A DNA stretch of 27,873 nucleotides, from positions 1 through 27,873 of IMG/VR virus record IMGVR_UViG_2778261450_000008. One strand, given 5' to 3'. A program made the translations under genes and the position numbers. The stretch is from a virus. Its lineage: Duplodnaviria > Heunggongvirae > Uroviricota > Caudoviricetes. Shown piece by piece: positions 1,009 to 26,072 of this stretch. Below the pieces are notes generated by a model. The model did not search any database and was not told where the DNA came from. It saw only the letters and a program-made list of their open reading frames with translations. Each line of letters begins with the position of its first letter. Position 1 is the first letter of the stretch.

Positions 1009-1083
1009 GTCCTCTTAGTTAAATGGATATAACGAGCCCCTCCTAAGGGCTAATTGCAGGTTCGATTCCTGCAGGGGACACCA
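1009..1083 (+). tRNA. argW: tRNA-Arg (anticodon CCU); prophage attachment site (attL side)
   Basis: 75-nt sequence GTCCTCTTAGTTAAATGGATATAACGAGCCCCTCCTAAGGGCTAATTGCAGGTTCGATTCCTGCAGGGGACACCA; acceptor stem pairs with the 3' end, CCT anticodon in the loop, GGTTCGATTCC T-arm. An integrase gene follows immediately. Confidence 0.93.
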
Positions 1084-1208: not shown

Positions 1209-2402
1209 GTGGATAAAATAATTTTACCCTCCGGATTTTTACCCATGCTCACCGTTAAGCAGATTGAAGCAGCAAAGCCGAAAGAAAAACCATACCGCCT
1301 TCTCGATGGTAATGGCCTGTACCTTTATGTCCCTGTATCCGGGAAAAAGGTATGGCAGCTTCGCTACAAGATTGACGGTAAGGAGAAAATCCTGACCGTC
1401 GGAAAATATCCGTTTATGACTTTGCAGGAGGCAAGGGATAAGGCATGGACTGCGAGGAAAGACATCTCGGCTGGCATCGATCCGGTAAAGGCGAAAAAGG
1501 CTTCGTCTAACAACAATTCCTTTAGTGCGATTTACAAGGAATGGTACGAGCACAAGAAGCAAGTCTGGTCAGTAGGCTATGCAACTGAACTTGCAAAAAT
1601 GTTTGATGACGACATTTTACCTATCATCGGCGGCCTTGAAATTCAGGATATTGAGCCGATGCAACTTCTGGAAGTAATCCGCAGATTTGAAGATCGCGGT
1701 GCAATGGAGCGAGCAAATAAAGCCCGCAGAAGATGCGGCGAGGTTTTCCGTTACGCTATTGTCACTGGTAGGGCTAAATATAACCCGGCACCTGACCTTG
1801 CTGACGCCATGAAGGGATACCGCAAGAAGAACTTCCCGTTTCTTCCTGCCGACCAGATCCCGGCATTCAACAAAGCACTTGCAACATTTTCAGGAAGTAT
1901 CGTATCGCTCATTGCGACAAAAGTTTTACGCTACACAGCCCTCAGAACAAAAGAGCTTCGTTCCATGCAATGGAAGAACGTCGATTTTGAAAACAGGATT
2001 ATCACCATTGACGCCAGTGTGATGAAGGGACGCAAAATTCATGTGGTTCCGATGTCGGACCAGGTAGTTGAACTTCTCACTACGCTAAGCTCCATCACTA
2101 AACCAGTATCAGAGTTTGTTTTTGCCGGGCGCAACGATAAGAAAAAGCCAATCTGCGAGAACGCGGTGCTACTTGTGATAAAACAAATCGGCTATGAGGG
2201 TCTGGAAAGCGGTCACGGATTCAGGCATGAATTCAGCACGATTATGAACGAGCACGAATGGCCTGCCGACGCCATTGAAGTGCAACTGGCACATGCCAAC
2301 GGCGGTTCTGTGCGCGGGATTTACAACCATGCGCAGTATCTCGATAAACGCAGGGAAATGATGCAATGGTGGGCGGACTGGCTTGATGAAAAGGTGGAGT
2401 GA
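1209..2402 (+). CDS. intS: Prophage tyrosine integrase (site-specific recombinase); likely true start is ATG at 1245
   Basis: The track ORF begins on GTG at 1209. From MLTVKQIEAAKPKEKPYRLLDGNGLYLYV it matches my recollection of CPS-53 IntS. C-terminal HGFRHEF and IYNHAQY are consistent with a tyrosine recombinase catalytic region. It sits directly beside the tRNA. Confidence 0.9.
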   Translation: MDKIILPSGFLPMLTVKQIEAAKPKEKPYRLLDGNGLYLYVPVSGKKVWQLRYKIDGKEKILTVGKYPFMTLQEARDKAWTARKDISAGIDPVKAKKASSNNNSFSAIYKEWYEHKKQVWSVGYATELAKMFDDDILPIIGGLEIQDIEPMQLLEVIRRFEDRGAMERANKARRRCGEVFRYAIVTGRAKYNPAPDLADAMKGYRKKNFPFLPADQIPAFNKALATFSGSIVSLIATKVLRYTALRTKELRSMQWKNVDFENRIITIDASVMKGRKIHVVPMSDQVVELLTTLSSITKPVSEFVFAGRNDKKKPICENAVLLVIKQIGYEGLESGHGFRHEFSTIMNEHEWPADAIEVQLAHANGGSVRGIYNHAQYLDKRREMMQWWADWLDEKVE

Positions 2403-2555: not shown

Positions 2556-2918
2556 ATGTTAAAGCTATTTGCAAAGTACACCTCGATTGGTGTGCTGAAC
2601 ACACTTATACACTGGGTGGTTTTTGGTGTATGTATCTATGTCGCGCATACAAACCAAGCTCTTGCAAACTTCGCAGGTTTTGTTGTGGCTGTGAGTTTTA
2701 GCTTCTTCGCGAATGCAAAATTCACATTCAAAGCATCAACTACAACGATGCGCTACATGTTATATGTCGGGTTCATGGGAACACTGAGTGCAACTGTTGG
2801 ATGGGCTGCTGATAGATGTTCACTTCCTCCAATTGTCACTCTCATCACCTTCTCAGCCATCAGTCTTGTGTGCGGTTTCGTCTATTCAAAGTTCATTGTC
2901 TTTAGGGATGCGAAATGA
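2556..2918 (+). CDS. gtrA: GtrA-family bactoprenol-linked glucose translocase (flippase)
   Basis: 120-aa, four predicted membrane helices, matches my recollection of YfdG/GtrA; first gene of a three-gene operon after int, with a 4-nt overlap with gtrB. Confidence 0.85.
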
Positions 2919-3841
2919 AGATATCTCTTGTAGTTCCTGTCTTCAATGAAGAAGAAGCAATACCAATTTTTTATAAAACGGTACGTGAATTCGAAGAGTT
3001 GAAGCCATACGAAGTGGAAATTGTTTTCATAAATGACGGCAGCAAAGACGCTACGGAGTCAATTATTAATGCTCTGGCTGTTTCAGATCCTCTAGTTGTT
3101 CCGCTGTCATTTACACGAAACTTTGGTAAAGAACCAGCATTATTCGCAGGGTTAGACCATGCAACAGGCGATGCTGTTATTCCAATTGATGTTGACCTGC
3201 AAGACCCGATTGAGGTTATTCCTCATCTTATTGAAAAGTGGCAGGCAGGTGCTGATATGGTGCTTGCTAAACGATCTGACCGCTCAACGGATGGCAGACT
3301 GAAGAGGAAAACCGCCGAGTGGTTCTATAAGCTTCACAATAAAATCAGCAATCCGCAGATCGAGGAAAATGTTGGTGATTTCCGTCTGATGTCTCGTGAA
3401 GTCGTAGAGAACATTAAGCTCATGCCAGAACGCAACCTTTTCATGAAGGGTGTTTTGAGTTGGGTTGGTGGTCGCACTGATATCGTTGATTATGCCCGCG
3501 CAGAACGTGTTGCTGGCAGTACCAAGTTCAACGGATGGAAGTTGTGGAATCTTGCTCTTGAGGGAATTACGAGCTTCTCGACTTTTCCGCTACGTATGTG
3601 GACTTACATCGGCCTTCTCGTCGCTGGCTTAGCATTTACATATGGCGCATGGATGATTCTGGACACTCTGGCGTTTGGAAACCCGGTTAGAGGTTATCCA
3701 TCCCTGCTAGTATCTATACTTTTCCTTGGTGGTATCCAACTCATTGGTATTGGTGTTCTTGGTGAGTACATTGGACGAATTTATATTGAAACAAAGCAAA
3801 GGCCGAAATATCTTTTAAAGAGTTCTAAAAATGAAAAATAA
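2915..3841 (+). CDS. gtrB: GtrB-family bactoprenol glucosyltransferase (GT2 family)
   Basis: 308-aa with an N-terminal GT2 signature (VVPVFNEEE...INDGSKD...DVDLQDP) and C-terminal membrane helices; YfdH/GtrB-like. Confidence 0.88.
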
Positions 3842-5291
3842 CATTAAGATTTACTTATTTATCACATTCTTACTTGCGCTCCCAATTATAATTGCAAATG
3901 TTTACTACAGCGATGATATGAGCAGAGCAATGAGCGGCGTAACTTATTGGGGAATTGATGGTAGACCATTATCAGATAGATTAATGATTATTCTTAATTT
4001 TAACAATCATCTAACTGACTTGGCTCCATTGCCTCTAATAATAGCATGTTTGCTATTGTCTATTTCATTTTATCTATTTCACATTAAATTATTTAATTCA
4101 GATAATCATTATCTTTTTTTACCGTTGTCATTTTTATTAAGTCCATTTATAATCGAACCTCTATCATACAGGTTTGATAGCTTAACCATCTCAGCTTCGA
4201 TATTTTTTGCATTTGCATTTATTTGTCTAAACTATAAAAACACGGTAATTTCATTTATTTTACATTCTAGCTTTATAGTTATCTTATTTTCATTTTACCA
4301 AGCATCTATTAATATAGTTTTTATATTAATCTCTATAGAAATGTTTGTTAACATAAAGAATAATAAAGAGCCAACACACATAATAAAGTCAATTGCATTT
4401 CGAATTATCGAAGTATTGGTTGGCGCTGTTATCTATATGAGGGTTGTACTGCCGTTAACTCATGTTAATGACAATAGTCAAAATCACCCAGGAGTTGCCA
4501 CAAATATTATAGATGTAATTCATAAGAACTTTATTGCGTATTATGATTTCTACACTAGAAATATAATCCCTGAGCATGGGAGTGAATTATTAATTGGTAG
4601 TTTTATTGTATCATTTGCATTTGCCATTAAATTGGTTTTTGTTTACATTAAAAAACACAAGTGTAATGCTGCTGTTTTTTTATCTTTGATGGCAGTGTTA
4701 TCATTACCTTTGACTTTTATATCATCAATGATTTCATTACTTCTCCTTGAAAACACTCTAACAACTTTTGCAAGGGTTTATATTGGGTTTAATGGTCTTT
4801 TTTTATTCATCTTCACCCTTTTATATTTGGGAATAAATAACACAAGAATTGTCAACGGTATATTTTTAATATTCCTTTTTTATATAATTACTCTTTTTTA
4901 TTCATATGGAAATGCTTTGCGAGCACAAGATGATAAAAATAAATACATTGCTGAAATTATTGGGCTAGCGTTAAAAAACATACCCGAAAATAGTGTTAAT
5001 GTTATGTTTAATGGTAGTTCACCAAAATCCCCTATACTACTTAATTCAGAATTAAATTATCCACTATTCAAAACAATAGTACTCGACTACTTCTATAACT
5101 GGTATGGCTCTCATGTATACCTCAAGATTAGAGGAGTAAATCAAAATTATCCTGATTTTTCCAGTAAAGAAGTATCTATGTTCATGAAGGACTATTGTAA
5201 ATCAACACTAATTTATTCATCTAATGATATTAAAATTTATCGTGATAATGAGAATGTAATGGTGAGTTTTGATGATTCTTTATGTAAATAA
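3831..5291 (+). CDS. GtrC-type serotype-specific O-antigen glucosyltransferase (polytopic membrane protein)
   Basis: 486-aa, very hydrophobic, strongly AT-rich codon usage, third position of the gtr operon and overlapping the gtrB stop. The specificity subunit is normally the most divergent and most recently acquired. Confidence 0.7.
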
Positions 5292-5387: not shown

Positions 5388-7193
5388 CTAAATTAGTTTA
5401 ACATCTACATTTCCTGCCGTTATCGGATCTTCAAGAACAGATGCTATGAATCTTACGACTGTGACAGCGCCAGTACCACCATAAACATATCCTTGAATTA
5501 GGTTTGGTGTTGTAGAAGAATCTCGACGAAAGTTAGATGAATTTACTGTTATGTACAAATTAAATGAATTTGTGCCATTGTTCTCAAACCTAAATATTGG
5601 CAAAGAAATTGGTGGATTTGCTGGGACAACCTGAAATTGACATCCATTTATCACCATTGTACCGTCATAAATAGATGGCGAAGCTTGGACTACTGCTATT
5701 CTTTCCCCCTTTACATTCTCACTTCCACAACTATTCATTGTTATTCCATGAGGGTTATTGAAAAGATAAGCTCTTGATATTGTCTCAGTAGTACCAGACA
5801 TAGGAAATATAGAATCAGCAGTACAACAATTTAGTGTTGTGTACTGTTGAGCGTCAATTTCAAAACCAATTTGATAATTAACAACTCCCACCTGGTCTAG
5901 AAGATTACTTGTTCCAGAAAGGTTATATATACCATCCCTCACTTTACCTAAATAAAAACCAGTAAACTGCCCAATAGCCAAACCTAAAAAACCGCACCGT
6001 TCAAATATATTTGAGAAGCAATCTTCACCCCAAAAACCATAATACCCACATTCTACACGCAAGTCTCTTAACAAACTTGAAGCCATGTAAGGAGAGTATA
6101 TTCCATATGTTGGTTGATTATTTCTATCTATAATTTCATGACGTCTTAAAGTAACACCTTGTATCTCTACGCCTGTAGCATAGTTATCACTCTCAACACC
6201 ATCTACAACGAATTTTTTTGGAAGAATAATCAGCAGTGCATCCACTGAGACTCCAGAAATTATGGTGTTCGCGTTATTTGTTGTTTTAGAGATAATCGTC
6301 TTATTTTGACCTTGACCTATGATTCCAGACCATGACTTTACAACAGGACTTTCGGAGGTTAGATATTCACCTGACATAAAATGAATAGGGGTATTATTAT
6401 CATATCCATATGATAAAGCCTTTGATATTGCAGAGGCGTTGTCAAAATCATTTATCGGTTTTGCTCCAAAATACTCTACCCATATCTCACCATCAACAAC
6501 CCTCCTCCAAGCAAATTTACCTGAACTTGGAACAATAACAATCCCTCCATCATCGGCAATCTGTGATGTGCTATTGTCGAAAGACTGGAAGTAACCACCG
6601 CCATAATGTTTTTCAGTTGCTGTAGCACTTGCTGCTGAAGCTACATAGACAATTTCTCCAGCAACTAATGGTATTGAATCCCTCAGCGCATCTAAATTGA
6701 GAAAGTTGCCTATGTGGCGAAAGCCATCATCAGCAGCCAAGTCACTTCTCAACGTATCTATTTTATGGGCATTATTGTCAAGAGCATCTTTGACAGTTTC
6801 ATCTCCATAACCAACCAGAGATGCGCCATCAGGGCCAGAAAGCTCAGCCCTTAACTGATCTGGAGAATATTTCAGTAGATCAGGATAATAGAATTGTTGT
6901 GCGCCATACGCATCATATACAGCCATGGAGTGATTCTGTACAGTTACGAACTTGGTAATCTGTCCGTTATATACGGGGTAACCAGCAGCATTAATGATGA
7001 TTGGTTGCGAAACAGGAACGTGAGAACCGTCTTCGTTCTCTATATAAACCTGAATCTGGTTTTCAGGATTTACCGGGTCAGTGTCAATTTTACCGATATA
7101 AATTTTGCCATTGGCTACAGCTTTAAAAGAACGAGCCATAGTGAAGAGTTGAGAAGGCATGCTTACCACAACATTTGCGGTGATATCTGACAT
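5388..7193 (-). CDS. Tailspike protein: P22-type N-terminal head-binding domain fused to a distinct receptor-binding (probable polysaccharide depolymerase) domain
   Basis: The track ORF starts at 7241 but a GGAG Shine-Dalgarno precedes the ATG at 7193. From there [46 protein letters not shown]... closely matches my recollection of the P22 gp9 N-terminus. The remainder does not match P22 and its 3' part is visibly AT-rich. Confidence 0.85.
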
Positions 7194-12185: not shown

Positions 12186-13030
12186 TGCTCCGCAATGATT
12201 TTGATGGCTGTGGCAGTAAACGCCGCACCATTTGACTGAATGGTTAACGTGCTGCCATTTGTGGCAAGAAAGCCGTCTTTATCCACACTGAAGAACGTAG
12301 CTAACAGGATGTTGTCGGTTGTTGTCGCCGAGTTGCGACTGCTTACCAGTGTGTCAGGAACAGAACCGGAGAATGTTAGCTGCATTGACCTGTTGGCGGT
12401 TCCGCTGGGCCACGTCCCGACGATCGACAGCTTGAAGAACAAGGTTTTGTTCTCGTTGAACACAACCATCTTGTTGTTAACGGTGTCGAAGAATGGTGCC
12501 AACGCGCCGGATGACGGCGTGAGCGTTTTCAGCAGGCTAACAAGGTTGGTCGGCGCTGTCGGGATGGTTACAGATACGCCAGAGTAAACAACCTCTGACT
12601 TCTTGCGAGTAGTGGCATACTCCAGAGCATCGATGCGCGTTTCATGGTCTGAAAGCGTGTTTTGAATGGCGACAACTTCATCCGTCAGGTAATCAATATC
12701 GTTTTCTGCTGTCGTTAATCGTGAATCAAGGCCGACTATCGCCGCTTCTGCGTTAGTGATCCTTGTTTCGTGGTCCTGAATCTTCGCTTCAGCTGATGCC
12801 AGTCGAATTTCGTGATCGACAAGAATCACATCCTGCTCATCGTTCCTGACTTGTGCGTCATAAGCTCCCTGTCCGGCCTCGTTGGCCTTGTTAGCCACAT
12901 TACCAACATCAGTACCCTGTGCAATAACGTACAGCAGATATGACTGCGAGAAGATATTACGCGGAAGGACTGATGTGTCGAGTCGTGTAGCCTGAATGAT
13001 TACCGGCTCATTGAGATTCGAATCAGCCAT
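12182..13030 (-). CDS. Tail needle (P22 gp26 family) with a C-terminal knob-like extension
   Basis: From the ATG at 13030 (TAATG overlap with the gp10 stop) [43 protein letters not shown] closely matches my recollection of the P22 gp26 N-terminus; a coiled-coil repeat region follows, then about 120 extra C-terminal residues. Confidence 0.85.
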
Positions 13031-14448
13031 TACTCGATCCTTATCTGGCAGCCAGACAGAGTGACAGGTGACTTCGTGATAACGCGCAATTTGAATCCGA
13101 CATTTTTCCTTATTCGCCCGACACGCTTCCACAAAACGCGTTTGTCGTAAACGAACGGTTCATTCTGCTCAATCATCTGCTCACGCCCGTAATTGATGCC
13201 GTCAGTGGTTGCAGAGAGAAAAAGGCGGTCAGCATACTGCGCAACTCCAGTTGACGATTCAACTTCAAGGTCGAAAACTCTGGCGTTATCCGCTTTGAAC
13301 AACGGAGTAAACAGCAGGTGTTCCTGCTGCTTGTCGTACTGGCTGCTGATATCGAACTGCAATTTCCCGGTCACGGATTCCAGCTTATCGCCGCACGTTA
13401 TCTGATTGCCTTCGTAAATGAAGTCGATAGCGCGGTACACATCGTCATACAAGCCAGTTTTCAACACACACCATTGCGGACCATTGGCGCTTGAAGATGC
13501 GTCGTACACGAGAACATGGCGCGCAAGATGGATAATCAGCAACTCATGCGCATCAAATCGTAGAGACTCCATCACGCCATCAGCCAGTTCATCAGCAGTG
13601 TAGGAGCGTAGTATTTTCTCAATGCTCGCGCTGGCGATTGGTGATACCTGACCGGAGCCGATGATATACACAGACGGCGCACCCGTTGCCGGATTGCTGA
13701 TGAACGCATAGGAATCAGCAAACGGCGTTTTGCAGTAAGTTCCGGCAATGCCTTTCTGCACCATCAGCGATGGCTGTGCGACATACAACGCGGCACCAAC
13801 AGTGGTTGCACCAGTCAGGGAGAAATATTCAATCGTTGATGAACCAAAGCAGACAATGAAGTCTCGCCATGTTCCGATGCCGATGATACCGTCAGGCTGA
13901 GACTCGGCACGATATTGTGCGCTGTATCGGTCAGGATGTGATTCGTCTTCAAGGTCAGTGATAAACCATGAATCAGTGCCGTCTTTTGACCACGCATAAC
14001 GCCCACGTAAGCGTGTAATGTCGCGGACTGAGCCTAACTCATACTGAGTGAATCCGCTATCAGTAGGCCAGTTTGAGACGGTTTTAACCGTGCCATCATA
14101 GCGATACTCGACCAGTTGCCCGTTAACGCCAACCGCCTGTGATGTCCTACCATGAGCCAATGATACACGACCACTTCCGGCAACATCGCCGACTTCACTT
14201 TCTCCCTTATACAACTTGCCACCACACACGCGATAAACAGCATTCTGCGCCATGTTGTACTCGACGCCGCGAGATACACCGTTCACATCAGAACGTTTGG
14301 CAATGCCCGGGAATGAGCGAAGATATCCGCTGCTGTTGAGGATTTCTTTGGGTGTAGCCAACATATTCACTGGCAGATAGTCGATATAGTCGGCGTTTCG
14401 GAAGTCTTTGCCGACACCTTTCATAAGCGGAAGTTGCTGAATCGGCAT
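13030..14448 (-). CDS. Tail/head-completion protein, P22 gp10 homologue
   Basis: 472-aa; [49 protein letters not shown]... is near-identical along its length to my recollection of P22 gp10. Confidence 0.9.
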
Positions 14449-14926
14449 TTATTCGCTCCCGTTATCGCAAGGTTCCTTCCGGTGGAAGTAATTCCAACCG
14501 TTCCACTTCGCCAACTGATTACCGCTACCAACAGGCATACGGTTTGGATAACCGGACTTACATTTAGCGGCTTTTGCTCTGTCCATTGCAGACAGTTTGA
14601 CGAGTCGCTCTTTCCCGTATCTGGCAGTGGTTATAAGTTTTGCTGACGCTTCCAGCGCATAATCCGGAGCAATGCGGCAGGCAAGGTTGAAAATGACGGC
14701 ATTGATAGCGTTATTTGATAAACCGTGCTCATCGCCCGGATCTGGAGCGACATCTGCATCAGCGAAAATGTAGCCAACGTTGATACCTGGTGACGCATCA
14801 GCGCCAAGCCATTCCGCCATCATCATTTCAAGGTCGTTGACACCATCTTCCATGGACTGAGGTTCGACATCGGTTAACGTGGCATTTGATGCCACACCGA
14901 GCTTACGTAATGCCGCAAGAACTAAA

Positions 14927-14949
<23 letters not shown>
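14449..14949 (-). CDS. Tail accessory protein, P22 gp4 homologue (166 aa from the ATG at 14949)
   Basis: [33 protein letters not shown]... aligns with the P22 gp4 N-terminus ([33 protein letters not shown]); AAGG Shine-Dalgarno upstream. The SQSQ-repeat extension in the track ORF is an upstream out-of-frame read-in. Confidence 0.85.
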
Positions 14950-15199
<250 letters not shown>

Positions 15200-15211
15200 G
15201 CTTGTCTCCAG

Positions 15212-15235
15212 ATAAAAATGGGAGCCGAAGCTCCC
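15212..15235 (-). terminator. Intrinsic terminator just downstream of the coat gene
   Basis: On the - strand: GGGAGC-UUCG-GCUCCC (6-bp GC-rich stem, UUCG tetraloop) followed by AUUUUUAU, beginning about 10 nt after the coat stop. Confidence 0.6.
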
Positions 15236-15243
15236 TCTGGTTA

Positions 15244-16542
15244 TCACGCGGTCTGGTTAGGCAGACCAACACCAATTGCCTCTGGTCGTACAGCACATGC
15301 TGAATACCACACAGCAATACGGCACTTGCCAGACAGAGTGTTGATATCACCCTGCGTTGCGAAGATGCCGTTAACACCAATGCCAGGAATGCTGAAGGAA
15401 GAAGTTTTCATGCCAGCAAACAGTTCATGGGTTACCGGGATCGGCTGAGACAGCAGGCGGATTGAGTCATCAGCCCAGAACACGTTAGCGGTGGTTGTTG
15501 CCACGTTCAGAACGTTTACCGGAGCGGCATCAGCAAGAGAGGTGTTTACGTTAGCGTAAGCCTTCTCTTCTTTTGTCAGTGAAGCGTCATCAAGCGCAAT
15601 CGGCTTCGGCGTGATTTCGATGTGAGTACCATCGATCACACGGGTGATTGAGAAAGTCGCATCATCAGTTAGCACGTTCTTCGCCATCTGAGACAGGAAT
15701 TTCACACCAGTGAAACTGATTTTGTCGCCGCGCTTAAATCCGGTGGTGGAGGATACGGTCACCGTTGCAACACGGTTGTCGACGTTCTCTTTGTTACCAT
15801 CGGTATCAAGGGTGTATGCCTGCGGCTTAAACTTCTGCGCACCAGAAACAGTTACACCAGTAGCGGTTGACTTGGTAACTGCCGGAAGTTTCGGTGAGCG
15901 AAGAATTTCATCAAAGCCAGCAATCTGACGCTGAATAGTACCGTTGCGATACGCTTCTTCAGGAACGCGACCGAAGATGTCACCATCTACCAGGTTGCGG
16001 CCTGCTTTGCGGTAATCGTCAGGGTTCAGGAAGTAACTGATGCCCATGTCGCGGTTGAGTTCGCGGGAGAACATCAGGCGCTCTGCATCAGACACAAAAT
16101 CCCAGCCAGACAGGCCAGTAGATGGACCAATTGCGCGGGTATCGTGAACAACAAGCGAGCCCATTTCAGTTGCCTGTTTGGCAATCGCTGACTCAATGTT
16201 ATTCGCCAGTTTTTTGGCGGATGCCTGGATGCGGCGACGGTAAGAACGCTCATCACGCAGGTCATCTGCACGAAGCTCGAAGAAATCGTTATCCGGATCG
16301 CCCATGTTGCATTTCACGGAGAGTTCCAGAATCCCTGTTGCGTTGCCAGTTAAATCCCAGCCAGTCTGGGTTGGCGATTCCTGCTCAACAGGCATCCACA
16401 CGGTGTTGCTTGAACGCTGCATGGATTCTGCCGGAGGGGTGTATTTTGTCACTTTGGACGCCATTGGCGTCAGGTTCTGGACGGTTTCAATGATTTCATC
16501 CAGAGCATATGTGACCAGTTGACCTTCATTTAATGCCATCAT
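15244..16542 (-). CDS. Major capsid (coat) protein, P22 gp5 homologue (HK97 fold)
   Basis: 432-aa; [27 protein letters not shown]...NRDMGISYF...[21 protein letters not shown]... is collinear with and highly similar to my recollection of P22 coat protein. Confidence 0.93.
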
Positions 16543-17450
16543 CGAATTCCTTTATTCAGTTGCGCCTTAAGCTTGCGGTACGTCTCTACATCCCCTTTGT
16601 TTGCTGCCGCTTCCATCTGCTTTTCAATCGCAGAGATATTTGCAGCAACAGCGTGTCCCTGAATGGGTTCATCAGGTAACGGGGCTTCTGAAACAGGCTT
16701 GGCTCGAGGCTTGAGAGTTAAACGTTCTGACAGTCGAGTTAGTTCAATCAGCGCGGATTGCCCGTCCATCGCCAGCAACTGGCGTGTCTTCTCAGGATTA
16801 GCACCAAGGTGATACATGAGAGCAGCGGATTTCTCCGGGAAGAGGCGCATGATGTCGGCACCGACTGCTGGCGGCACCAGTTGCATGAATGCATCCTCTT
16901 TCTCCTGATAGTCAGGGATATTGAGCTTTTCCGCTGCGTCGTAGTGCTTACGGGCTGCCTCGACGTATTGCGCTGATTGCTGGGTGAACTCCTGAGTTTT
17001 GCGACCCTGCTCGGCGACAGCCTGGCTTCGTGCGTCCATAGCCTTGATCTGCCATTCACTGTTTGCCTGCTGGAAGGCAGCCAGTGCGCGGCTCTGGTCA
17101 TAGTCGTACTTAGCCAGTGCATCTTCGGAAAGATAATCGTTAGGGTCTGGTTGTTTTGGTAACTCAGGGTTCACCCGCAGGTGTTCCGGCAACTCCCCTC
17201 GCTTAACCGCTTCCATCTGCTGCTCAAGCTCACGCTGGCGTTTGCGTTCGATGCGGCGACGGGCAAATTCAGCATTAGTTGCCGGGTCTTGTTTTGGTTT
17301 CTCATCGTCTTTCAGGACAATCTCGAAGCCTTCTTCCTGACCTGCGTTGTCGTTGGCATTATCGACAACTAAGCCATCAGCAGATGCCGCTGCATGATTG
17401 CCGGGCAGGGTTAATTCTTCAGAAGCCTGAATGTCGGTGGTTTGTTCCAT
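16539..17450 (-). CDS. Scaffolding protein, P22 gp8 homologue
   Basis: 303-aa; [50 protein letters not shown]... matches P22 gp8 in length and sequence, with the same C-terminal helix-turn-helix region. Confidence 0.9.
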
Positions 17451-17463
17451 GATTAACTCTCTC

Positions 17464-19629
17464 TTATTGAGGTGTCTCGGCTACTCCGCCGGAGGGGATT
17501 TGAACTTGACGCATAAGATTCGCGAAATCCATGCGTTGTGAATGAGTCTGGTCTGCATCTTTAAGAAGCAGCTCAGCGTTAGCACGAGCATCTTTGCTGC
17601 GCTGTTGCTGGAATTGACCTACGAGCTTGAGGTACTCACGCAGTTCTGCCTGCTTGTCGAGGTCCATATTGTTGAAGATTTCTGCAATCTTCGCGGCGTT
17701 GAGTTGGTTTTGGGCTTCAACCTTGGCAGCTTCAACCTGAATCTGCGCCTGTTGGTTCTCTGCCTTGAGCAATTCAGCCTGACCTTGCAGAAGGATACCC
17801 TGCGCCTGAATTTGCTCTGCTGATGGCTGCTGCGGCTGTTGTTGTGCCTGCTGTACCATCTCCATCTCTTCAGGTGTTTCTGGTTTCTTCAGCCCCATCA
17901 TCACCAGTTGCTTGTTCGCGTACTCTCGCATCATCTCAACGCCTTTACCGTCAAGCAGCGTGAAGTATTGCAGCATCAGCATCTGGAACTCTGGAGTACC
18001 TTGCGGAACCTTGGTGAGTAACTCCTGAATCTCTGCGCGGTTCTGTTCCTTCATGCTCTGGAAGGATGGCCCAACGTCTGTATAGCACTCATAGCGACCG
18101 CGAATGTCGTTGAGTGTGACCACATTACCGGACTGGTAATCTACAACTTGCGCGTAGAGTTGAACGTCTTTCTCGCTACCATCTTCAAGTGTCAGCGTTA
18201 CATGACGAGGAACGTCATAAATATCGTTGACCATTGAGGCATAAATCTCGCCATCACGTCGCATTGCGGTAGCCAGGTTATCCTGAAACACGTATGTCTC
18301 AAGGTCTGCCCGCATGTTCAGTTGATTGACGGTATCGAAAGCGACCTGAGAGTTTGCCGCCTGCGCATCCACGCCAAGACTAGCCACCTCTTTCACTGCG
18401 TTGGTGGCAGCCTCAAGCATGTAAGCGTTGGCTTGCGGCACTTCAGGGTTTTCCATGTAGGAGATTGGACCAATCGGCAGGTCGTTACCGTTTTCATCGG
18501 TCCTGTTCTGCAGATAGTACGGATAGTCATCATTTCCACCGTACATGTATTCGTAGTCTTCGATTTGCTCAGGGAAGAAGGTCGGTTTCTTCTTCGGTGA
18601 ACGAGCAACAATATCGGCGTTGAACGACATGATCATGTTACGAAGGCGTTGACCGTCTTTCGTCAGCCTTACCACTCCCTCGTAGCACTCCTTGTCACCA
18701 GCGAATGACCATTCTCCATACACTGGAACGATTGGGATATGCTCTCCGGCTATCTTTTCTCGGTCCTTCAGTATCTGCGTGCAGGTGATGATCGACTTAT
18801 ACACACGACGACGCTTCACCTTGCGCTCTGCTACCTTAATGAATCCACGATTAGCCAGGTCGTCGATAACGTCTTTAATATCCTGCTGGTAATAGCTGAC
18901 TGGCTCACCTGTCAACGGGTCGCGGTAGATGAAGACTTTCTCCTTCTTCTCTTCTACCTCGTAATACTCAGCGACGTAGACGACATCATTCGATACCCAC
19001 GGAAACTGCCATGTGTCGTTCGGATTCTGGAAAGATGGCAGGGTGTCAGGATCAATACCGTAATCCTCTGCGAACTCTTTCCAGCCATTGCGCGACAAGG
19101 CGTTAATCACCGTGCAGTGCTTAGCGTCGCTCTTATCCATCTGCTTGCTGTTGGCGTCCCATATGACGTGTGAGCAGGCTTCATGAATTGGCAGGCGTCG
19201 AATTACCTGATTGTTGCTTGTTGGGTCGTTGTCTTCGTACTGTGTGACCAGGCGCCATGCACCAACGCCGGACTCTATCTGCTCACGAACGCCAACGTTA
19301 ACGGCAATCTTTGCCGTGTTATGGCGCATATCAGTACGATACATCCCCATCAACACATCGGCTGCATCAGGATTAGCGCCGTCTTTGGGTCTGAATAGAA
19401 CGTCGATAGGGTTCCGACGCATCTCTGCGACCAGTTTCCTGACCACCGGGCGAACAACATCGAATTGTCCGCGATATTGCAGGGTGGTGTAGTTTGATAG
19501 CCAGTCATCCCATTGCGACACTCGGCTAAAATACAGGTCATTTGTCGCCTCGGTTCTGGCTTCATCGCTCGCCATCCAGTCCGCGTCAAACTTGCACAGA
19601 ATGGAATTGAGTCTGTTTTCGTCGGCCAT
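17464..19629 (-). CDS. Portal protein, P22 gp1 homologue
   Basis: 721-aa; [45 protein letters not shown]... is highly similar to my recollection of P22 portal, with the Gln-rich C-terminal barrel region. Confidence 0.93.
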
Positions 19630-22730: not shown

Positions 22731-23074
22731 ATCAACCTCGTCTAGTTGTTCGTCATAGATTCAGTGACTGGCGGTGACGATTCCGCTTTTCGGGAGCTAC
22801 CCTAGCCACTGTTTTATTCTATCCGATGTCTTTCCATCAGTACGCCACCACAAAGAATCTTTTTTGCCATAAGGCAGGAGGTTCATCTTTCAGTGGCTGC
22901 CAGTGTTATTTCCCCACTTACTGGCTTGGGTTGTTTCGCTGTACTGCCGTAACTGGTGGTGCACAGATTTAGTTAAATCTGTTCTCGCCTGAACTATCTT
23001 TTACATACCCGGATTGTGGGGATGTAAATCACGGTTTCATTATCAAGCCCACCCGTAGATGGGCTTTGGAATGG

Positions 23075-23593
23075 TCACTTTGGCAGTCCGGGGATCGATA
23101 TTTGCGCCTGCTGCTCAAGCCTTTCGATTCTTGCTATGAGTTGCGGTTTTTTGATCCTGCCCCAGCGGTTCAGCAAGCGTCCTGACATACTGGCAACATC
23201 CTTTTCCTTCATGAACTCCAGCATTAACTCGTTGTGCTCTCTTTGGTATGAGTGAGCCATCTCCATCAGCCTGTCACGCATCCAATTAAATGCTTTGATA
23301 AACGCCTCTTTGATGGCGGCAGCTTTTTTGCCGGTAAACGACATGATGATGTACATCGCACCGTCTTTGGAAATTTCATATTCAACATACTGATTACCCT
23401 TGTGTTCATAGGTAACCCGCGAAAAGTTGCTGGTTAGAAATTCATCCGAACAGTCTAGCTTTTCGATTTTCTGAATGATGTGGTGATGCTGCTTGTCGAA
23501 GTAAGCTGCTACCTTGCGGGAGGTTGTGATCACGCGATCACCAGAAACAACCACCATGTCCCGGAACTCGAGATTAGCCAATTGATGATTCAT
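23075..23593 (-). CDS. rha: Rha-family phage regulatory protein
   Basis: The track ORF begins on GTG at 23629; the internal ATG at 23593 with AAGG upstream gives MNHQLANLEFRDMVVVSGDRVITTSRKVAAYFDKQHHHIIQKIEKL, typical of the Rha N-terminal domain, in the usual position between the lysis cassette and terminase. Confidence 0.7.
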   Translation of the reverse strand: MNHQLANLEFRDMVVVSGDRVITTSRKVAAYFDKQHHHIIQKIEKLDCSDEFLTSNFSRVTYEHKGNQYVEYEISKDGAMYIIMSFTGKKAAAIKEAFIKAFNWMRDRLMEMAHSYQREHNELMLEFMKEKDVASMSGRLLNRWGRIKKPQLIARIERLEQQAQISIPGLPK

Positions 23594-23742
23594 AGCGTCT
23601 TTACCTTTTAGAAAGTGAGCCTGTCTCACAGAAAAGCCGTCCCGAGATGGTCGCCACCATATACGGCAGTTCTCAGGCTCAACTTTCTGAAAGGCTCGGG
23701 TGATGTAATATGCGCGTGAGATGCGCTGTGAAATTCAGATGT

Positions 23743-25310: not shown

Positions 25311-25343
25311 CGCAAAAAGCCCCGAGCTATTAACTCAGGGCTT
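25311..25343 (-). terminator. Candidate tR' intrinsic terminator downstream of pR'
   Basis: On the - strand: AGCCCUGAG-uuaauag-CUCGGGGCU (9-bp stem with one G-U) followed by UUUUUGCGUUUU, roughly 30-60 nt downstream of the predicted pR' start. Confidence 0.5.
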
Positions 25344-25370
25344 TATTTAACGAGTGCATTTATCCATCGT

Positions 25371-25406
25371 TGAGTCAAATTTACCCAACTTTATTCAATA
25401 AGTCAA
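25371..25406 (-). promoter_or_regulatory. Late promoter pR' with qut-like region
   Basis: The - strand reads TTGACT-(17 bp)-TAAATT followed by TGACTCAACGATGG, matching my recollection of the lambda pR' -35/-10 and initial transcribed sequence; located immediately 3' of Q. Confidence 0.7.
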
Positions 25407-25448: not shown

Positions 25449-26072
25449 CTAACGTGTGACAGCATTCAAAATGTTGTCTGCGATTGATTCTTCTTTGTGG
25501 CATTGCACCACCAGAGCGTCATACAGCGGCTTAACAGTGCGTGACCAGGTGGGTTGAGTAAGGTTTGGGATTAGCATCGTTACAGCGCGATATGCGGCGC
25601 TTGCTGGCATCCTTGAATAACCGACGCCTTTGCATCTTCCGCACTCTTTCTCAACAACTCTCCCCCACTGCTCCATTTTGGCTATATCAACCGCACGGCC
25701 TGTACCGTGGCAATCTCTGCATCTTGCGCCCGGCGTCGCGGCACTACGGCAATAATCCGCATAAGCGAATGTTGCGAGCACTTGCAGTACCTTTGTCTTA
25801 GTATTTCCTTCAAGCTTTGCCACACCACGGTATTTCCCCGATACCTTGTGTGCAAATTGCATCAGATAGTTGATAGCCTTTTGTTTGTCGTTCTGGCTGA
25901 GTTCATGTTTACCACAGAATGCAGCCATTCCGAATCCGGCTTGTGATTGCGCCATCCCCATAGCAGCCATCACATCAGTACCGGAAAGAGAGTCAGAAGC
26001 CGTAGCCCGTGGTGAGTCGCTCATCATCGGGCTTTTTGGCGAATGAAATTTAGCTACGCTTTCGAGTCTCAT
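25449..26072 (-). CDS. Q: Late-gene antiterminator Q (lambda type)
   Basis: 207-aa; MRLESVAKFHSPKSPMMSDSPRATASDSLSGTDVMAAMGMAQSQAGFG... with the CRDCHGTGRA...CGRCKG zinc-binding motif; essentially identical to my recollection of lambda Q. Confidence 0.95.
   Translation of the reverse strand: MRLESVAKFHSPKSPMMSDSPRATASDSLSGTDVMAAMGMAQSQAGFGMAAFCGKHELSQNDKQKAINYLMQFAHKVSGKYRGVAKLEGNTKTKVLQVLATFAYADYCRSAATPGARCRDCHGTGRAVDIAKMEQWGRVVEKECGRCKGVGYSRMPASAAYRAVTMLIPNLTQPTWSRTVKPLYDALVVQCHKEESIADNILNAVTR

What the first reader, a model, noticed from the sequence alone, without database searches (positions are those of the whole stretch)
15212..15235. Tetraloop terminator immediately after the coat gene, followed by a re-initiating ribosome-binding site
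A GC-rich UUCG-tetraloop hairpin with a U-run sits about 10 nt past the coat stop, and the next ORF's Shine-Dalgarno site and ATG begin within 15 nt of it. This would attenuate transcription after the most abundant structural gene, helping set coat/scaffold levels relative to the low-copy tail accessory proteins. The terminator is read directly from the sequence; its regulatory role is inferred.
Basis: partly seen in the sequence, partly recalled or inferred. Interest (0 to 1): 0.27.

Follow-up and report, generated by a model that had tools for sequence, protein, structure and literature searches.

The report
Known terminator hairpin after coat gene
A small, very stable RNA hairpin followed by a run of U sits just after the major coat gene of this P22-like E. 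coli prophage; it is real and strongly conserved, but the same element is already annotated in phages P22, L, HK97 and is visible in lambda, and its regulatory role is still untested.

Summary
On the minus strand, GGGAGC-UUCG-GCUCCC (15235-15220) starts 8 nt after the coat stop codon (TGA, 15246-15244). It is followed by AUUUUUAUCU, a GGAG Shine-Dalgarno site (15209-15206) and the ATG (15199) of a 90-aa ORF.

It is not a chance hairpin. A strict scan finds 2 such sites in the window against 0.145 in shuffles. A GC hairpin, mostly C(UUCG)G, with a U-rich tail follows the P22-type coat gene in 43 of 45 lineages surveyed, down to 25-30% coat identity, and the stem shows compensatory changes.

It is also not new. 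The curated P22 record annotates this stem-loop. The phage L and HK97 records call it a terminator. Zaworski et al. 2021 discuss it and state that its role is unknown. Lambda has the same arrangement after gene E.

This late operon is driven by a lambda-type Q antiterminator, which makes RNA polymerase resistant to terminator hairpins.

My best reading is a leaky intrinsic terminator and protective 3' hairpin at the boundary of the procapsid module. The window's copy carries a rare U-to-A change at the first tail position. Interest is low.

The parts
15244..16542 (-). Major coat protein gene (P22 gp5 type), 432 aa, stop TGA at 15246-15244
   Evidence: ORF list. Pfam PF11651 P22_CoatProtein, E = 1e-166. 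73% identical to P22 gp5.
15236..15243 (-). 8-nt spacer TAACCAGA between the coat stop and the stem; begins with a second in-frame stop, TAA
   Evidence: Read from the sequence.
15220..15235 (-). Hairpin GGGAGC-UUCG-GCUCCC: 6-bp stem with 5 G-C pairs and a C(UUCG)G tetraloop
   Evidence: Sequence. Terminator scan. -10.8 kcal/mol. Present in the context MFE structure. Conserved with compensatory changes.
15210..15219 (-). U-rich tail AUUUUUAUCU (6 U in the first 8 nt; first position A)
   Evidence: Sequence. Among about 78 near-identical relatives, all but one (G) have U at the first position. Only 2 of 171 E. coli genomes with the full stretch match the window exactly.
15206..15209 (-). Shine-Dalgarno GGAG of the downstream ORF, 6 nt before the ATG
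   Evidence: Sequence. A GGAG or GAGG motif sits at the same place in most related lineages, read by eye from the sequences printed; I did not tabulate it.
14927..15199 (-). 90-aa ORF (phrog_1175, unknown function) starting at ATG 15199; carries a (Glu-Pro)9 tract; its end overlaps the gp4 start (14949) by 23 nt
   Evidence: Translation. PHROGs E = 2e-32, the same family as P22 orf69 and the CUS-3 small ORF. Annotated as a CDS in phage APC_JM3.2.
25449..26072 (-). Context: Q antiterminator gene (lambda Q type), which modifies the RNA polymerase that reads the late operon
   Evidence: Pfam PF03589, E = 2e-56. PDB 7UBM chain Q, E = 4e-137 over residues 1-207.
25316..25406 (-). Context: late promoter-like site (TTGACT, 17 nt, TAAATT; 25406-25378) and a strong leader terminator (13-bp stem, 25344-25316; -18.6 kcal/mol)
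   Evidence: Promoter and terminator scan. Sequence. Energy. The resemblance to lambda PR'/tR' is from my own memory of the lambda sequence.

Best explanation
This is the local copy of the conserved hairpin that follows the major capsid gene in lambdoid late operons. It is a short intrinsic (Rho-independent) terminator built on an extra-stable C(UUCG)G tetraloop, and it marks the boundary between the procapsid module (portal, scaffold, coat) and the head-completion module.

Proposed mechanism:
- RNA polymerase that has not been modified by Q stops here. That includes leak-through of the leader terminator and starts from internal promoters.
- Q-modified polymerase in the lytic cycle reads through most of the time, so termination is only partial.
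- Whether the 3' end is made by the minority of termination events or by cleavage in the AU-rich tail, the hairpin then caps the upstream coat-containing RNA. It shields that RNA from 3'-to-5' exonucleases.
- The net effect is a modest step-down in mRNA abundance from coat to the downstream genes.
- The U-rich tail and the strong SD let the next ORF initiate independently.

Shown: the structure, its position and orientation, its conservation and covariation, and the presence of lambda-type Q.
Inferred: every statement about termination efficiency, RNA stability and the effect on protein ratios.

The confidence of 0.5 applies to this composite mechanism. That the element is a selected RNA hairpin of the terminator type I hold at about 0.9.
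For: - Structure and position.
- Curated precedent at the orthologous site. P22 record BK000583 has 'stem_loop, putative; similar in location to stem-loops in phage HK97 and phage lambda'. Phage L record MW013503 has 'terminator'. The HK97 record has 'terminator putative' directly after gp5.
- Lambda has AUGGCCC-UUCG-GGGCCAU 2 nt after the E stop. HK97 has GGGCGGG-GAAA-CCCGCCC plus UUUU.
- Survey of 45 lineages with P22-type coat genes (25-98% identity; Enterobacterales, Pseudomonas, and metagenome-assembled genomes of other phyla). 43 have a GC hairpin starting -2 to 21 nt from the stop (median 7). 41 of those 43 have at least 5 U in the next 8 nt. 28 of 43 have a UUCG loop.
- Covariation on 34 distinct hairpins: 97.1% of cells paired, 3 of 6 pairs changed on both sides (G-C to A-U, U-A), and 0 of 500 shuffles reach the observed score.
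- The U-run lies only on the late-operon strand. On the + strand the hairpin is followed by TCTGGTTATC.
- Lytic relatives (Sortsne, Kc237, ST231) carry long, textbook terminators at the same place, about 90 nt from the next gene.
- The exact 16-mer occurs in at least 120 unrelated viral contigs, and 76% of copies are followed by at least 5 T in 8. It is a generic terminator core.
- Q context.
Against: - No 3'-end or coverage data for any P22-like phage were found. The BTP1 transcriptome paper does not address this site, and the phage L paper says the roles are unknown.
- Q-lambda-loaded polymerase precludes terminator hairpin formation (PMC9388147). A 6-bp stem is much weaker than the leader terminator that Q must already overcome (-10.8 against -18.6 kcal/mol). 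Termination in the lytic cycle may be negligible.
- The title of Sampson et al. 1988 attributes lambda late-gene ratios to translation initiation, which argues against a large mRNA-level effect.
- The coat stop is only 8 nt from the stem, so a terminating ribosome would cover the 5' arm and could block folding on well-translated RNA. This rests on general knowledge of ribosome footprints.
- The U-rich tail could also be kept for translation of the next ORF (S1 binding).
- The structure-anchored alignment used for covariation leans towards the structure, and many A-U copies may descend from a single event.
Confidence: 0.5

Rival explanations
1. Strong attenuator. A substantial fraction of late transcripts end here during lytic growth, and this is what sets the high coat and scaffold levels relative to the low-copy head-completion and tail accessory proteins.
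For: The architecture is that of a canonical terminator and is conserved. Partial termination is one of two roles suggested for the phage L orthologue. The genes upstream are needed in hundreds of copies and those downstream in 3-12 copies per virion (my own knowledge of P22 virion composition).
Against: The operon is read by polymerase modified by lambda-type Q, which is termination-resistant. The stem is short and the tail imperfect, and the window's tail begins with A. Portal, needed in only 12 copies, lies upstream of the hairpin with coat, so position relative to the hairpin cannot explain stoichiometry. The Sampson et al. 1988 title points to translation initiation.
Confidence: 0.15
2. 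Insulator only. The hairpin exists to stop polymerases that are not Q-modified, in the prophage state or early in infection, and has no effect on Q-driven late expression.
For: This role is proposed explicitly for phage L. Four internal promoters were mapped on the coding strand of the capsid gene cluster of BTP1. Other terminator-like hairpins sit at module boundaries in the same operon, after Rz at 23767-23747 and at 22470-22455. That pattern fits serial back-up stops behind the leader terminator.
Against: There is no obvious cost to low-level expression of the genes just downstream (small ORF, gp4, gp10). The lytic relatives are not known prophages, yet they keep an even stronger terminator at this position.
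Confidence: 0.2
3. Purely post-transcriptional or translational element. The hairpin never terminates transcription in vivo. It acts as a decay barrier or RNase E processing landmark, or as an insulator that keeps the downstream ribosome-binding site unstructured.
For: The Q nozzle argument. Two lineages keep an intact C(UUCG)G hairpin with a U-poor tail (L110 and L113, 3 U in 8). The distance from the hairpin to the next start codon is a nearly constant 16-24 nt in the 37 lineages where my script located an SD-led start codon after the hairpin.
Against: 41 of 43 lineages keep a U-rich tail immediately after the stem. In lytic relatives the tail is 8 of 8 U with no start codon nearby, which points to termination. 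The constant spacing is also what simple packing of U-tract, SD and spacer would give.
Confidence: 0.12
4. Recombination linker. The shared GC-rich palindrome persists because it is a micro-homology at which procapsid and head-completion modules are exchanged, not because of any RNA function.
For: The same hairpin is followed by two different downstream ORF forms among 99%-identical coat genes, with the breakpoint just after the T-run. P22/L homology of the procapsid module ends at the coat stop, position 6360. The Proteus phage Brookers has the identical 16-mer although its flanks have diverged.
Against: Compensatory stem changes and non-homologous hairpins at the same place (GAAA loops, different stems, lambda, HK97) show selection on structure rather than sequence. 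The strand-specific U-run is not explained by this idea.
Confidence: 0.03

Closest known systems
[quoted passage not shown]
   Same: Orthologous position: a P22-type coat gene upstream, a phrog_1175-family ORF downstream, a 6-bp GC stem, a 4-nt stable loop, a U-rich tail, then SD and ATG.
   Different: The stem is GGGAGC/GCUCCC rather than AGGGGC/GCCCCU, that is, a compensatory G-C to A-U change. The tail starts with A. The spacer from the stop is 8 nt rather than 5 nt. The downstream ORF carries an (EP)n repeat.
HK97 putative terminator after gp5, and the lambda hairpin between E and FI
   Same: A stable-tetraloop hairpin (GAAA in HK97, UUCG in lambda) within a few nt of the major capsid stop, inside a Q-controlled late operon, and directly before the next gene's SD.
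   Different: The capsid genes are unrelated in sequence, as are the stems and the downstream genes. This is positional analogy rather than demonstrable homology.
T7 T-phi terminator after the major capsid gene 10 (my own knowledge)
   Same: An incompletely efficient terminator placed right after the most abundant structural gene, with downstream genes expressed by read-through.
   Different: T-phi acts on T7 RNA polymerase and has been shown experimentally. Here the host polymerase carries Q, and nothing has been measured.
Intercistronic stabiliser hairpins (REP in malE-malF, the puf operon hairpins, pap operon processing) and the CUUCGG hairpins of T4 intercistronic regions (Tuerk et al. 1988) (my own knowledge)
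   Same: A stable hairpin between cistrons that can protect the upstream segment from 3' exonucleases and so give unequal mRNA levels within one operon. The C(UUCG)G motif is the same.
   Different: Those elements generally lack a U-tract and have been tested experimentally. This one has the full anatomy of a terminator and has not been tested.

Membership tests
Rho-independent (intrinsic) terminator | GC-rich stem-loop of about 5-14 bp with a short loop | tested here: met
   6-bp stem with 5 G-C pairs, UUCG loop, -10.8 kcal/mol.
Rho-independent (intrinsic) terminator | U-tract of about 7-9 nt immediately 3' of the stem, on the transcribed strand | tested here: met
   AUUUUUAU has 6 U in 8, but the first position is A; most relatives have UUUUUUAU. 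There is no T-run on the opposite strand.
Rho-independent (intrinsic) terminator | Transcripts actually end at the U-tract | not testable with these tools
   Needs Term-seq, 3'-RACE or in vitro transcription. No such data were found in the literature searches.
Post-capsid-gene stem-loop of lambdoid late operons (P22 / L / HK97 / lambda) | Hairpin within about 25 nt downstream of the major capsid gene stop, inside the late operon and in its orientation | tested here: met
   8 nt after the stop. The same holds in 43 of 45 lineages and in lambda and HK97.
Post-capsid-gene stem-loop of lambdoid late operons (P22 / L / HK97 / lambda) | Orthologous flanks with P22: gp5-type coat upstream, orf69-family gene downstream | tested here: met
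   Pfam PF11651. phrog_1175 matches both the window ORF and P22 orf69.
Post-capsid-gene stem-loop of lambdoid late operons (P22 / L / HK97 / lambda) | Structure kept by compensatory change | tested here: met
   3 of 6 pairs changed on both sides, 97.1% of cells paired, 0 of 500 shuffles reach the score. Caveat: the alignment was anchored on the loop.
C(UUCG)G extra-stable tetraloop hairpin | UUCG loop closed by a C-G pair | tested here: met
   ...AGC UUCG GCU.... 28 of 43 related hairpins have UUCG.
Q-antiterminated late operon | Q gene directly upstream of a promoter and leader terminator that head the late genes | tested here: met
   The Q protein matches PDB 7UBM at E = 4e-137. Promoter-like site at 25406-25378 and terminator at 25344-25316.
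Translational termination-reinitiation coupling | Stop and start codons overlap or lie within a few nt, and the downstream start depends on the upstream ribosome | tested here: not met
   44 nt separate the stop from the ATG, and the ATG has its own GGAG 6 nt upstream.
RNase III processing site / sib-like retroregulator | Duplex of about 20 bp or more | tested here: not met
   The stem is only 6 bp. The outer CCAGA/UCUGG helix in the MFE structure is absent in P22, L and CUS-3.
Any curated Rfam family | Match to a covariance model | tested here: not met
   No hit at E <= 1 in 15100-15350.

The most novel reading that the evidence does not exclude
The hairpin is conserved across lambdoid late operons even though Q-loaded polymerase cannot form terminator hairpins. 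Its selected role may therefore not be termination of late transcription at all.

It could be a post-transcriptional or coupling-dependent device. One option is a decay barrier or RNase E landmark that sets segment-specific mRNA levels. Another is a quality-control stop. Because the coat stop lies only -2 to 21 nt upstream (median 7), a closely coupled ribosome would mask the 5' arm, and only untranslated or uncoupled transcripts would be cut off.
Probability: 0.15. Interest if true: 0.5.

Novelty: already known. Interest (0 to 1): 0.15.

Why it matters
For this window it matters little. The element is an ordinary orthologue of a feature already annotated in the model phages, and PGAP-style annotation simply does not record it.

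What the survey adds is breadth. This hairpin is one of the most conserved non-coding features of phages with P22-type coat genes. It persists where the coat protein has drifted to 25-30% identity, and it recurs after the unrelated capsid genes of lambda and HK97.

That persistence sits oddly with Q-mediated terminator resistance. The published statement that its role is 'not known' is therefore a small, cleanly testable question about how long phage operons tune expression.

Tried and rejected
- **Generic terminator scan as evidence.** Rejected: 24 sites against 18.2 +/- 4.1 in shuffles. I replaced it with a strict scan.
- **Bidirectional terminator**, as the phage L record annotates on both strands. 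Rejected here because the + strand has no T-run after the hairpin.
- **Extended outer helix CCAGA/UCUGG** that would sequester part of the SD. Rejected because it is not conserved in P22, L or CUS-3.
- **Rfam.** No family matches the hairpin.
- **Ten-sequence coat alignment (A1)** as a query for genome contigs. A four-sequence alignment worked.
- **MAFFT on all 36 hairpins.** It misaligned two non-homologous stems. I dropped them for the pair count.
- **Literature.** Searches for transcript-end data on P22-like late operons found only the in-silico discussion in the phage L paper. Pedulla et al. 2003 and Sampson et al. 1988 are not held.
- **The window's Pfam hit of the small ORF to trypanosome PARP** (23 bits against a cut-off of 100). 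This is a low-complexity artefact of the Glu-Pro repeat.
- **A numerical terminator d-score.** Not reported, because I could only recall the formula from memory.

Full report
**What the window is.** The window is a P22-like (Lederbergvirus) prophage of E. coli, and its late operon runs on the minus strand.
- Gene order is Q antiterminator (25449-26072), lysis genes, terminase, portal (17464-19629), scaffold (16539-17450) and coat (15244-16542). After these come a 90-aa ORF (14927-15199), the gp4 homologue (14449-14949) and the gp10 homologue (13030-14448).
- The closest phage records are APC_JM3.2, IME10, Dewey and Louie, at 94-98% DNA identity.
- The 81-nt stretch around the finding occurs in 212 of 5426 complete E. 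coli genomes.

**The observation.**
- The coat gene ends with TGA at 15246-15244.
- After 8 nt comes GGGAGC-UUCG-GCUCCC (15235-15220), then AUUUUUAUCU.
- GGAG follows at 15209-15206 and ATG at 15199.
- The loop is the extra-stable UUCG tetraloop closed by a C-G pair.
- The hairpin alone is worth -10.8 kcal/mol. It appears in the minimum-free-energy fold of the 71-nt context, z = -2.26.

**Is it more than chance?** The loose terminator scan is not informative: 24 sites against 18.2 +/- 4.1 expected. A strict definition finds two sites in the whole window on both strands, against 0.145 in shuffles. One of them sits in this 44-nt intergenic gap. The U-run is on the late-operon strand only.

**It is already annotated elsewhere.**
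- The curated P22 record (BK000583) carries a stem_loop feature at the orthologous place. Its note reads 'putative; similar in location to stem-loops in phage HK97 and phage lambda'.
- The phage L record annotates a terminator there.
- Zaworski et al. [quoted passage not shown] They offer two possibilities: partial termination, or stopping transcription that started without antitermination (PMC8022706).
- The HK97 record marks 'terminator putative' right after gp5, with sequence GGGCGGG-GAAA-CCCGCCC-UUUU.
- Lambda has AUGGCCC-UUCG-GGGCCAU 2 nt after the E stop, followed by the SD and ATG of FI.

**How conserved it is.** I surveyed the region after P22-type coat genes in three sets.
- *Phage records.* Eleven of 12 lineages have the hairpin.
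- *Close relatives.* Eighty IMG/VR contigs have 99% identical coat genes. In the 73 that could be anchored, the stem is invariant, and there are a few loop variants.
- *Prophages in genomes of different species.* These came from genome contigs and have coat identity of 29-98%. Thirty-five of 36 loci have a GC hairpin after the coat stop; L128 has only a weak, U-poor hairpin.

After removing duplicates, 43 of 45 lineages have a GC-rich hairpin.
- It starts -2 to 21 nt after the stop, with a median of 7.
- 41 of the 43 have at least 5 U in the next 8 nt.
- 28 of the 43 have a UUCG loop. Others have UUUG, UUAG, UGCG or GAAA.
- Where my script located an SD-led start codon after the hairpin (37 of the 43), it lies 16-24 nt beyond it.
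- Stems differ: GGGAGC, (A)GGGGC, GGGGGC, AGGGGU/ACCCCU, and unrelated longer stems.

On 34 distinct four-loop hairpins, 97.1% of cells pair and three of six pairs show changes on both sides. No shuffle of 500 reaches the observed covariation score, and all slid registers do much worse. The alignment was anchored on the loop, which favours the structure. Some A-U copies may also share a single origin.

Lytic relatives (Sortsne, Kc237, ST231) have long textbook terminators at this position. The exact 16-mer also occurs in at least 120 unrelated viral contigs. There, 76% of copies are followed by at least 5 T in 8. It is a generic terminator core.

**What follows the hairpin.** The downstream ORF is real and conserved. 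It belongs to phrog_1175, as do P22 orf69, the CUS-3 small ORF and the N-terminus of phage L orf186. It has its own SD, and its start lies 44 nt past the coat stop. This is ordinary independent initiation, not reinitiation. The head-completion genes come after it.

**Mechanism.** The anatomy is that of an intrinsic terminator, and its conservation shows it is selected. What it does in vivo has not been measured.

Three facts temper the attenuation reading.
1. The Q protein here is essentially lambda Q (PDB 7UBM, E = 4e-137 over the full length). It sits in front of a promoter-like site and a 13-bp leader terminator. Q-lambda forms a nozzle on the RNA exit channel that precludes terminator hairpins (PMC9388147). 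A 6-bp stem is much weaker than the leader terminator that Q must already overcome (-10.8 against -18.6 kcal/mol).
2. For lambda, Sampson et al. 1988 attribute late-gene expression ratios to translation initiation. I verified only the title.
3. Portal, a 12-copy protein, lies upstream of the hairpin together with coat. The hairpin therefore cannot by itself sort high-copy from low-copy genes.

I therefore favour a composite reading. The hairpin is a leaky terminator that stops polymerase lacking Q and is mostly read through by Q-modified polymerase. Its stable hairpin also caps and protects the upstream coat-containing RNA, giving at most a modest step-down in mRNA. I put this at about 0.5.

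The rivals are as follows.
- Insulator only (0.2).
- Purely post-transcriptional or translational element (0.12).
- Recombination linker (0.03).

**A local peculiarity.** The first base after the stem is A.
- Of about 78 near-identical relatives, all but one (G) have U there.
- Only 2 of the 171 E. coli genomes that contain the whole stretch match the window exactly.
- A or G at this position recurs in other lineages: CUS-3, Sf101, L095, L096 and L098.
- Because the stem-proximal U residues matter most for termination (general knowledge), this copy is probably a somewhat weaker terminator than the family norm.

**Verdict.** The feature is already known, its function is still unmeasured, and interest is low.

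Noticed in passing
window 14997-15054 (within ORF 14927-15199, minus strand): A perfect hexanucleotide tandem repeat (9.7 copies of TCTGGC) encodes (Glu-Pro)9 in the small phrog_1175 protein. In about 70 near-identical relatives the copy number ranges from 0 to 13 and is almost always in frame, giving proteins of 74-100 aa. This is a hypervariable linker of unknown purpose.
   Followed up: partly
L011 (IMG/VR) compared with window 14927-15199: Some relatives with 99%-identical coat genes have a 195-aa form of the downstream ORF. It shares the N-terminal domain and the basic C-terminal tail (...[22 protein letters not shown]) with the window's ORF but has an inserted middle domain. The mosaic junction lies right after the hairpin's T-run.
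   Followed up: partly
window 23767-23747 and 22470-22455 (minus strand): Two more terminator-like hairpins lie inside the late operon. One comes directly after the Rz spanin gene: GAGCCUCGC-GAU-GCGGGGCUU plus UUUUAC, -13.6 kcal/mol. A weaker one (-4.8 kcal/mol) lies further downstream. They suggest serial stops at module boundaries.
   Followed up: partly
window 22750-22812 (minus strand): An Rfam int-alpA RNA match (RF02996, 38.6 bits against a gathering score of 35.8) lies between a Rha-like regulator gene (23075-23629) and small ORFs, inside the late operon.
   Followed up: no
window 25316-25406 (minus strand): Downstream of Q there is a late promoter-like site (TTGACT, 17 nt, TAAATT) followed by a short leader and a strong 13-bp terminator. 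From my memory of the lambda sequence it looks nearly identical to lambda PR'/QBE, but with a much shorter leader than lambda 6S RNA.
   Followed up: partly
window 1009-1080 (+) and 1209-2402 (+): A tRNA gene lies next to an integrase-sized ORF (397 aa) at the left end, probably the prophage attachment site. ORFs of GtrA/GtrB/GtrC size (120, 308 and 486 aa) at 2556-5291 suggest O-antigen modification genes. I did not test either point.
   Followed up: no
L105 and L106 (Symbiopectobacterium sp. RP, two loci): The post-coat hairpin carries a stem mismatch (GGGGC UUCG UCCCC) in both copies. This may be decay of the element in a degenerating prophage of a symbiont.
   Followed up: no
L002 (phage Dewey) 1373-1894: An HNH endonuclease gene is inserted on the opposite strand between the scaffold and coat genes in phages Dewey and Louie. 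It is absent from the window.
   Followed up: no
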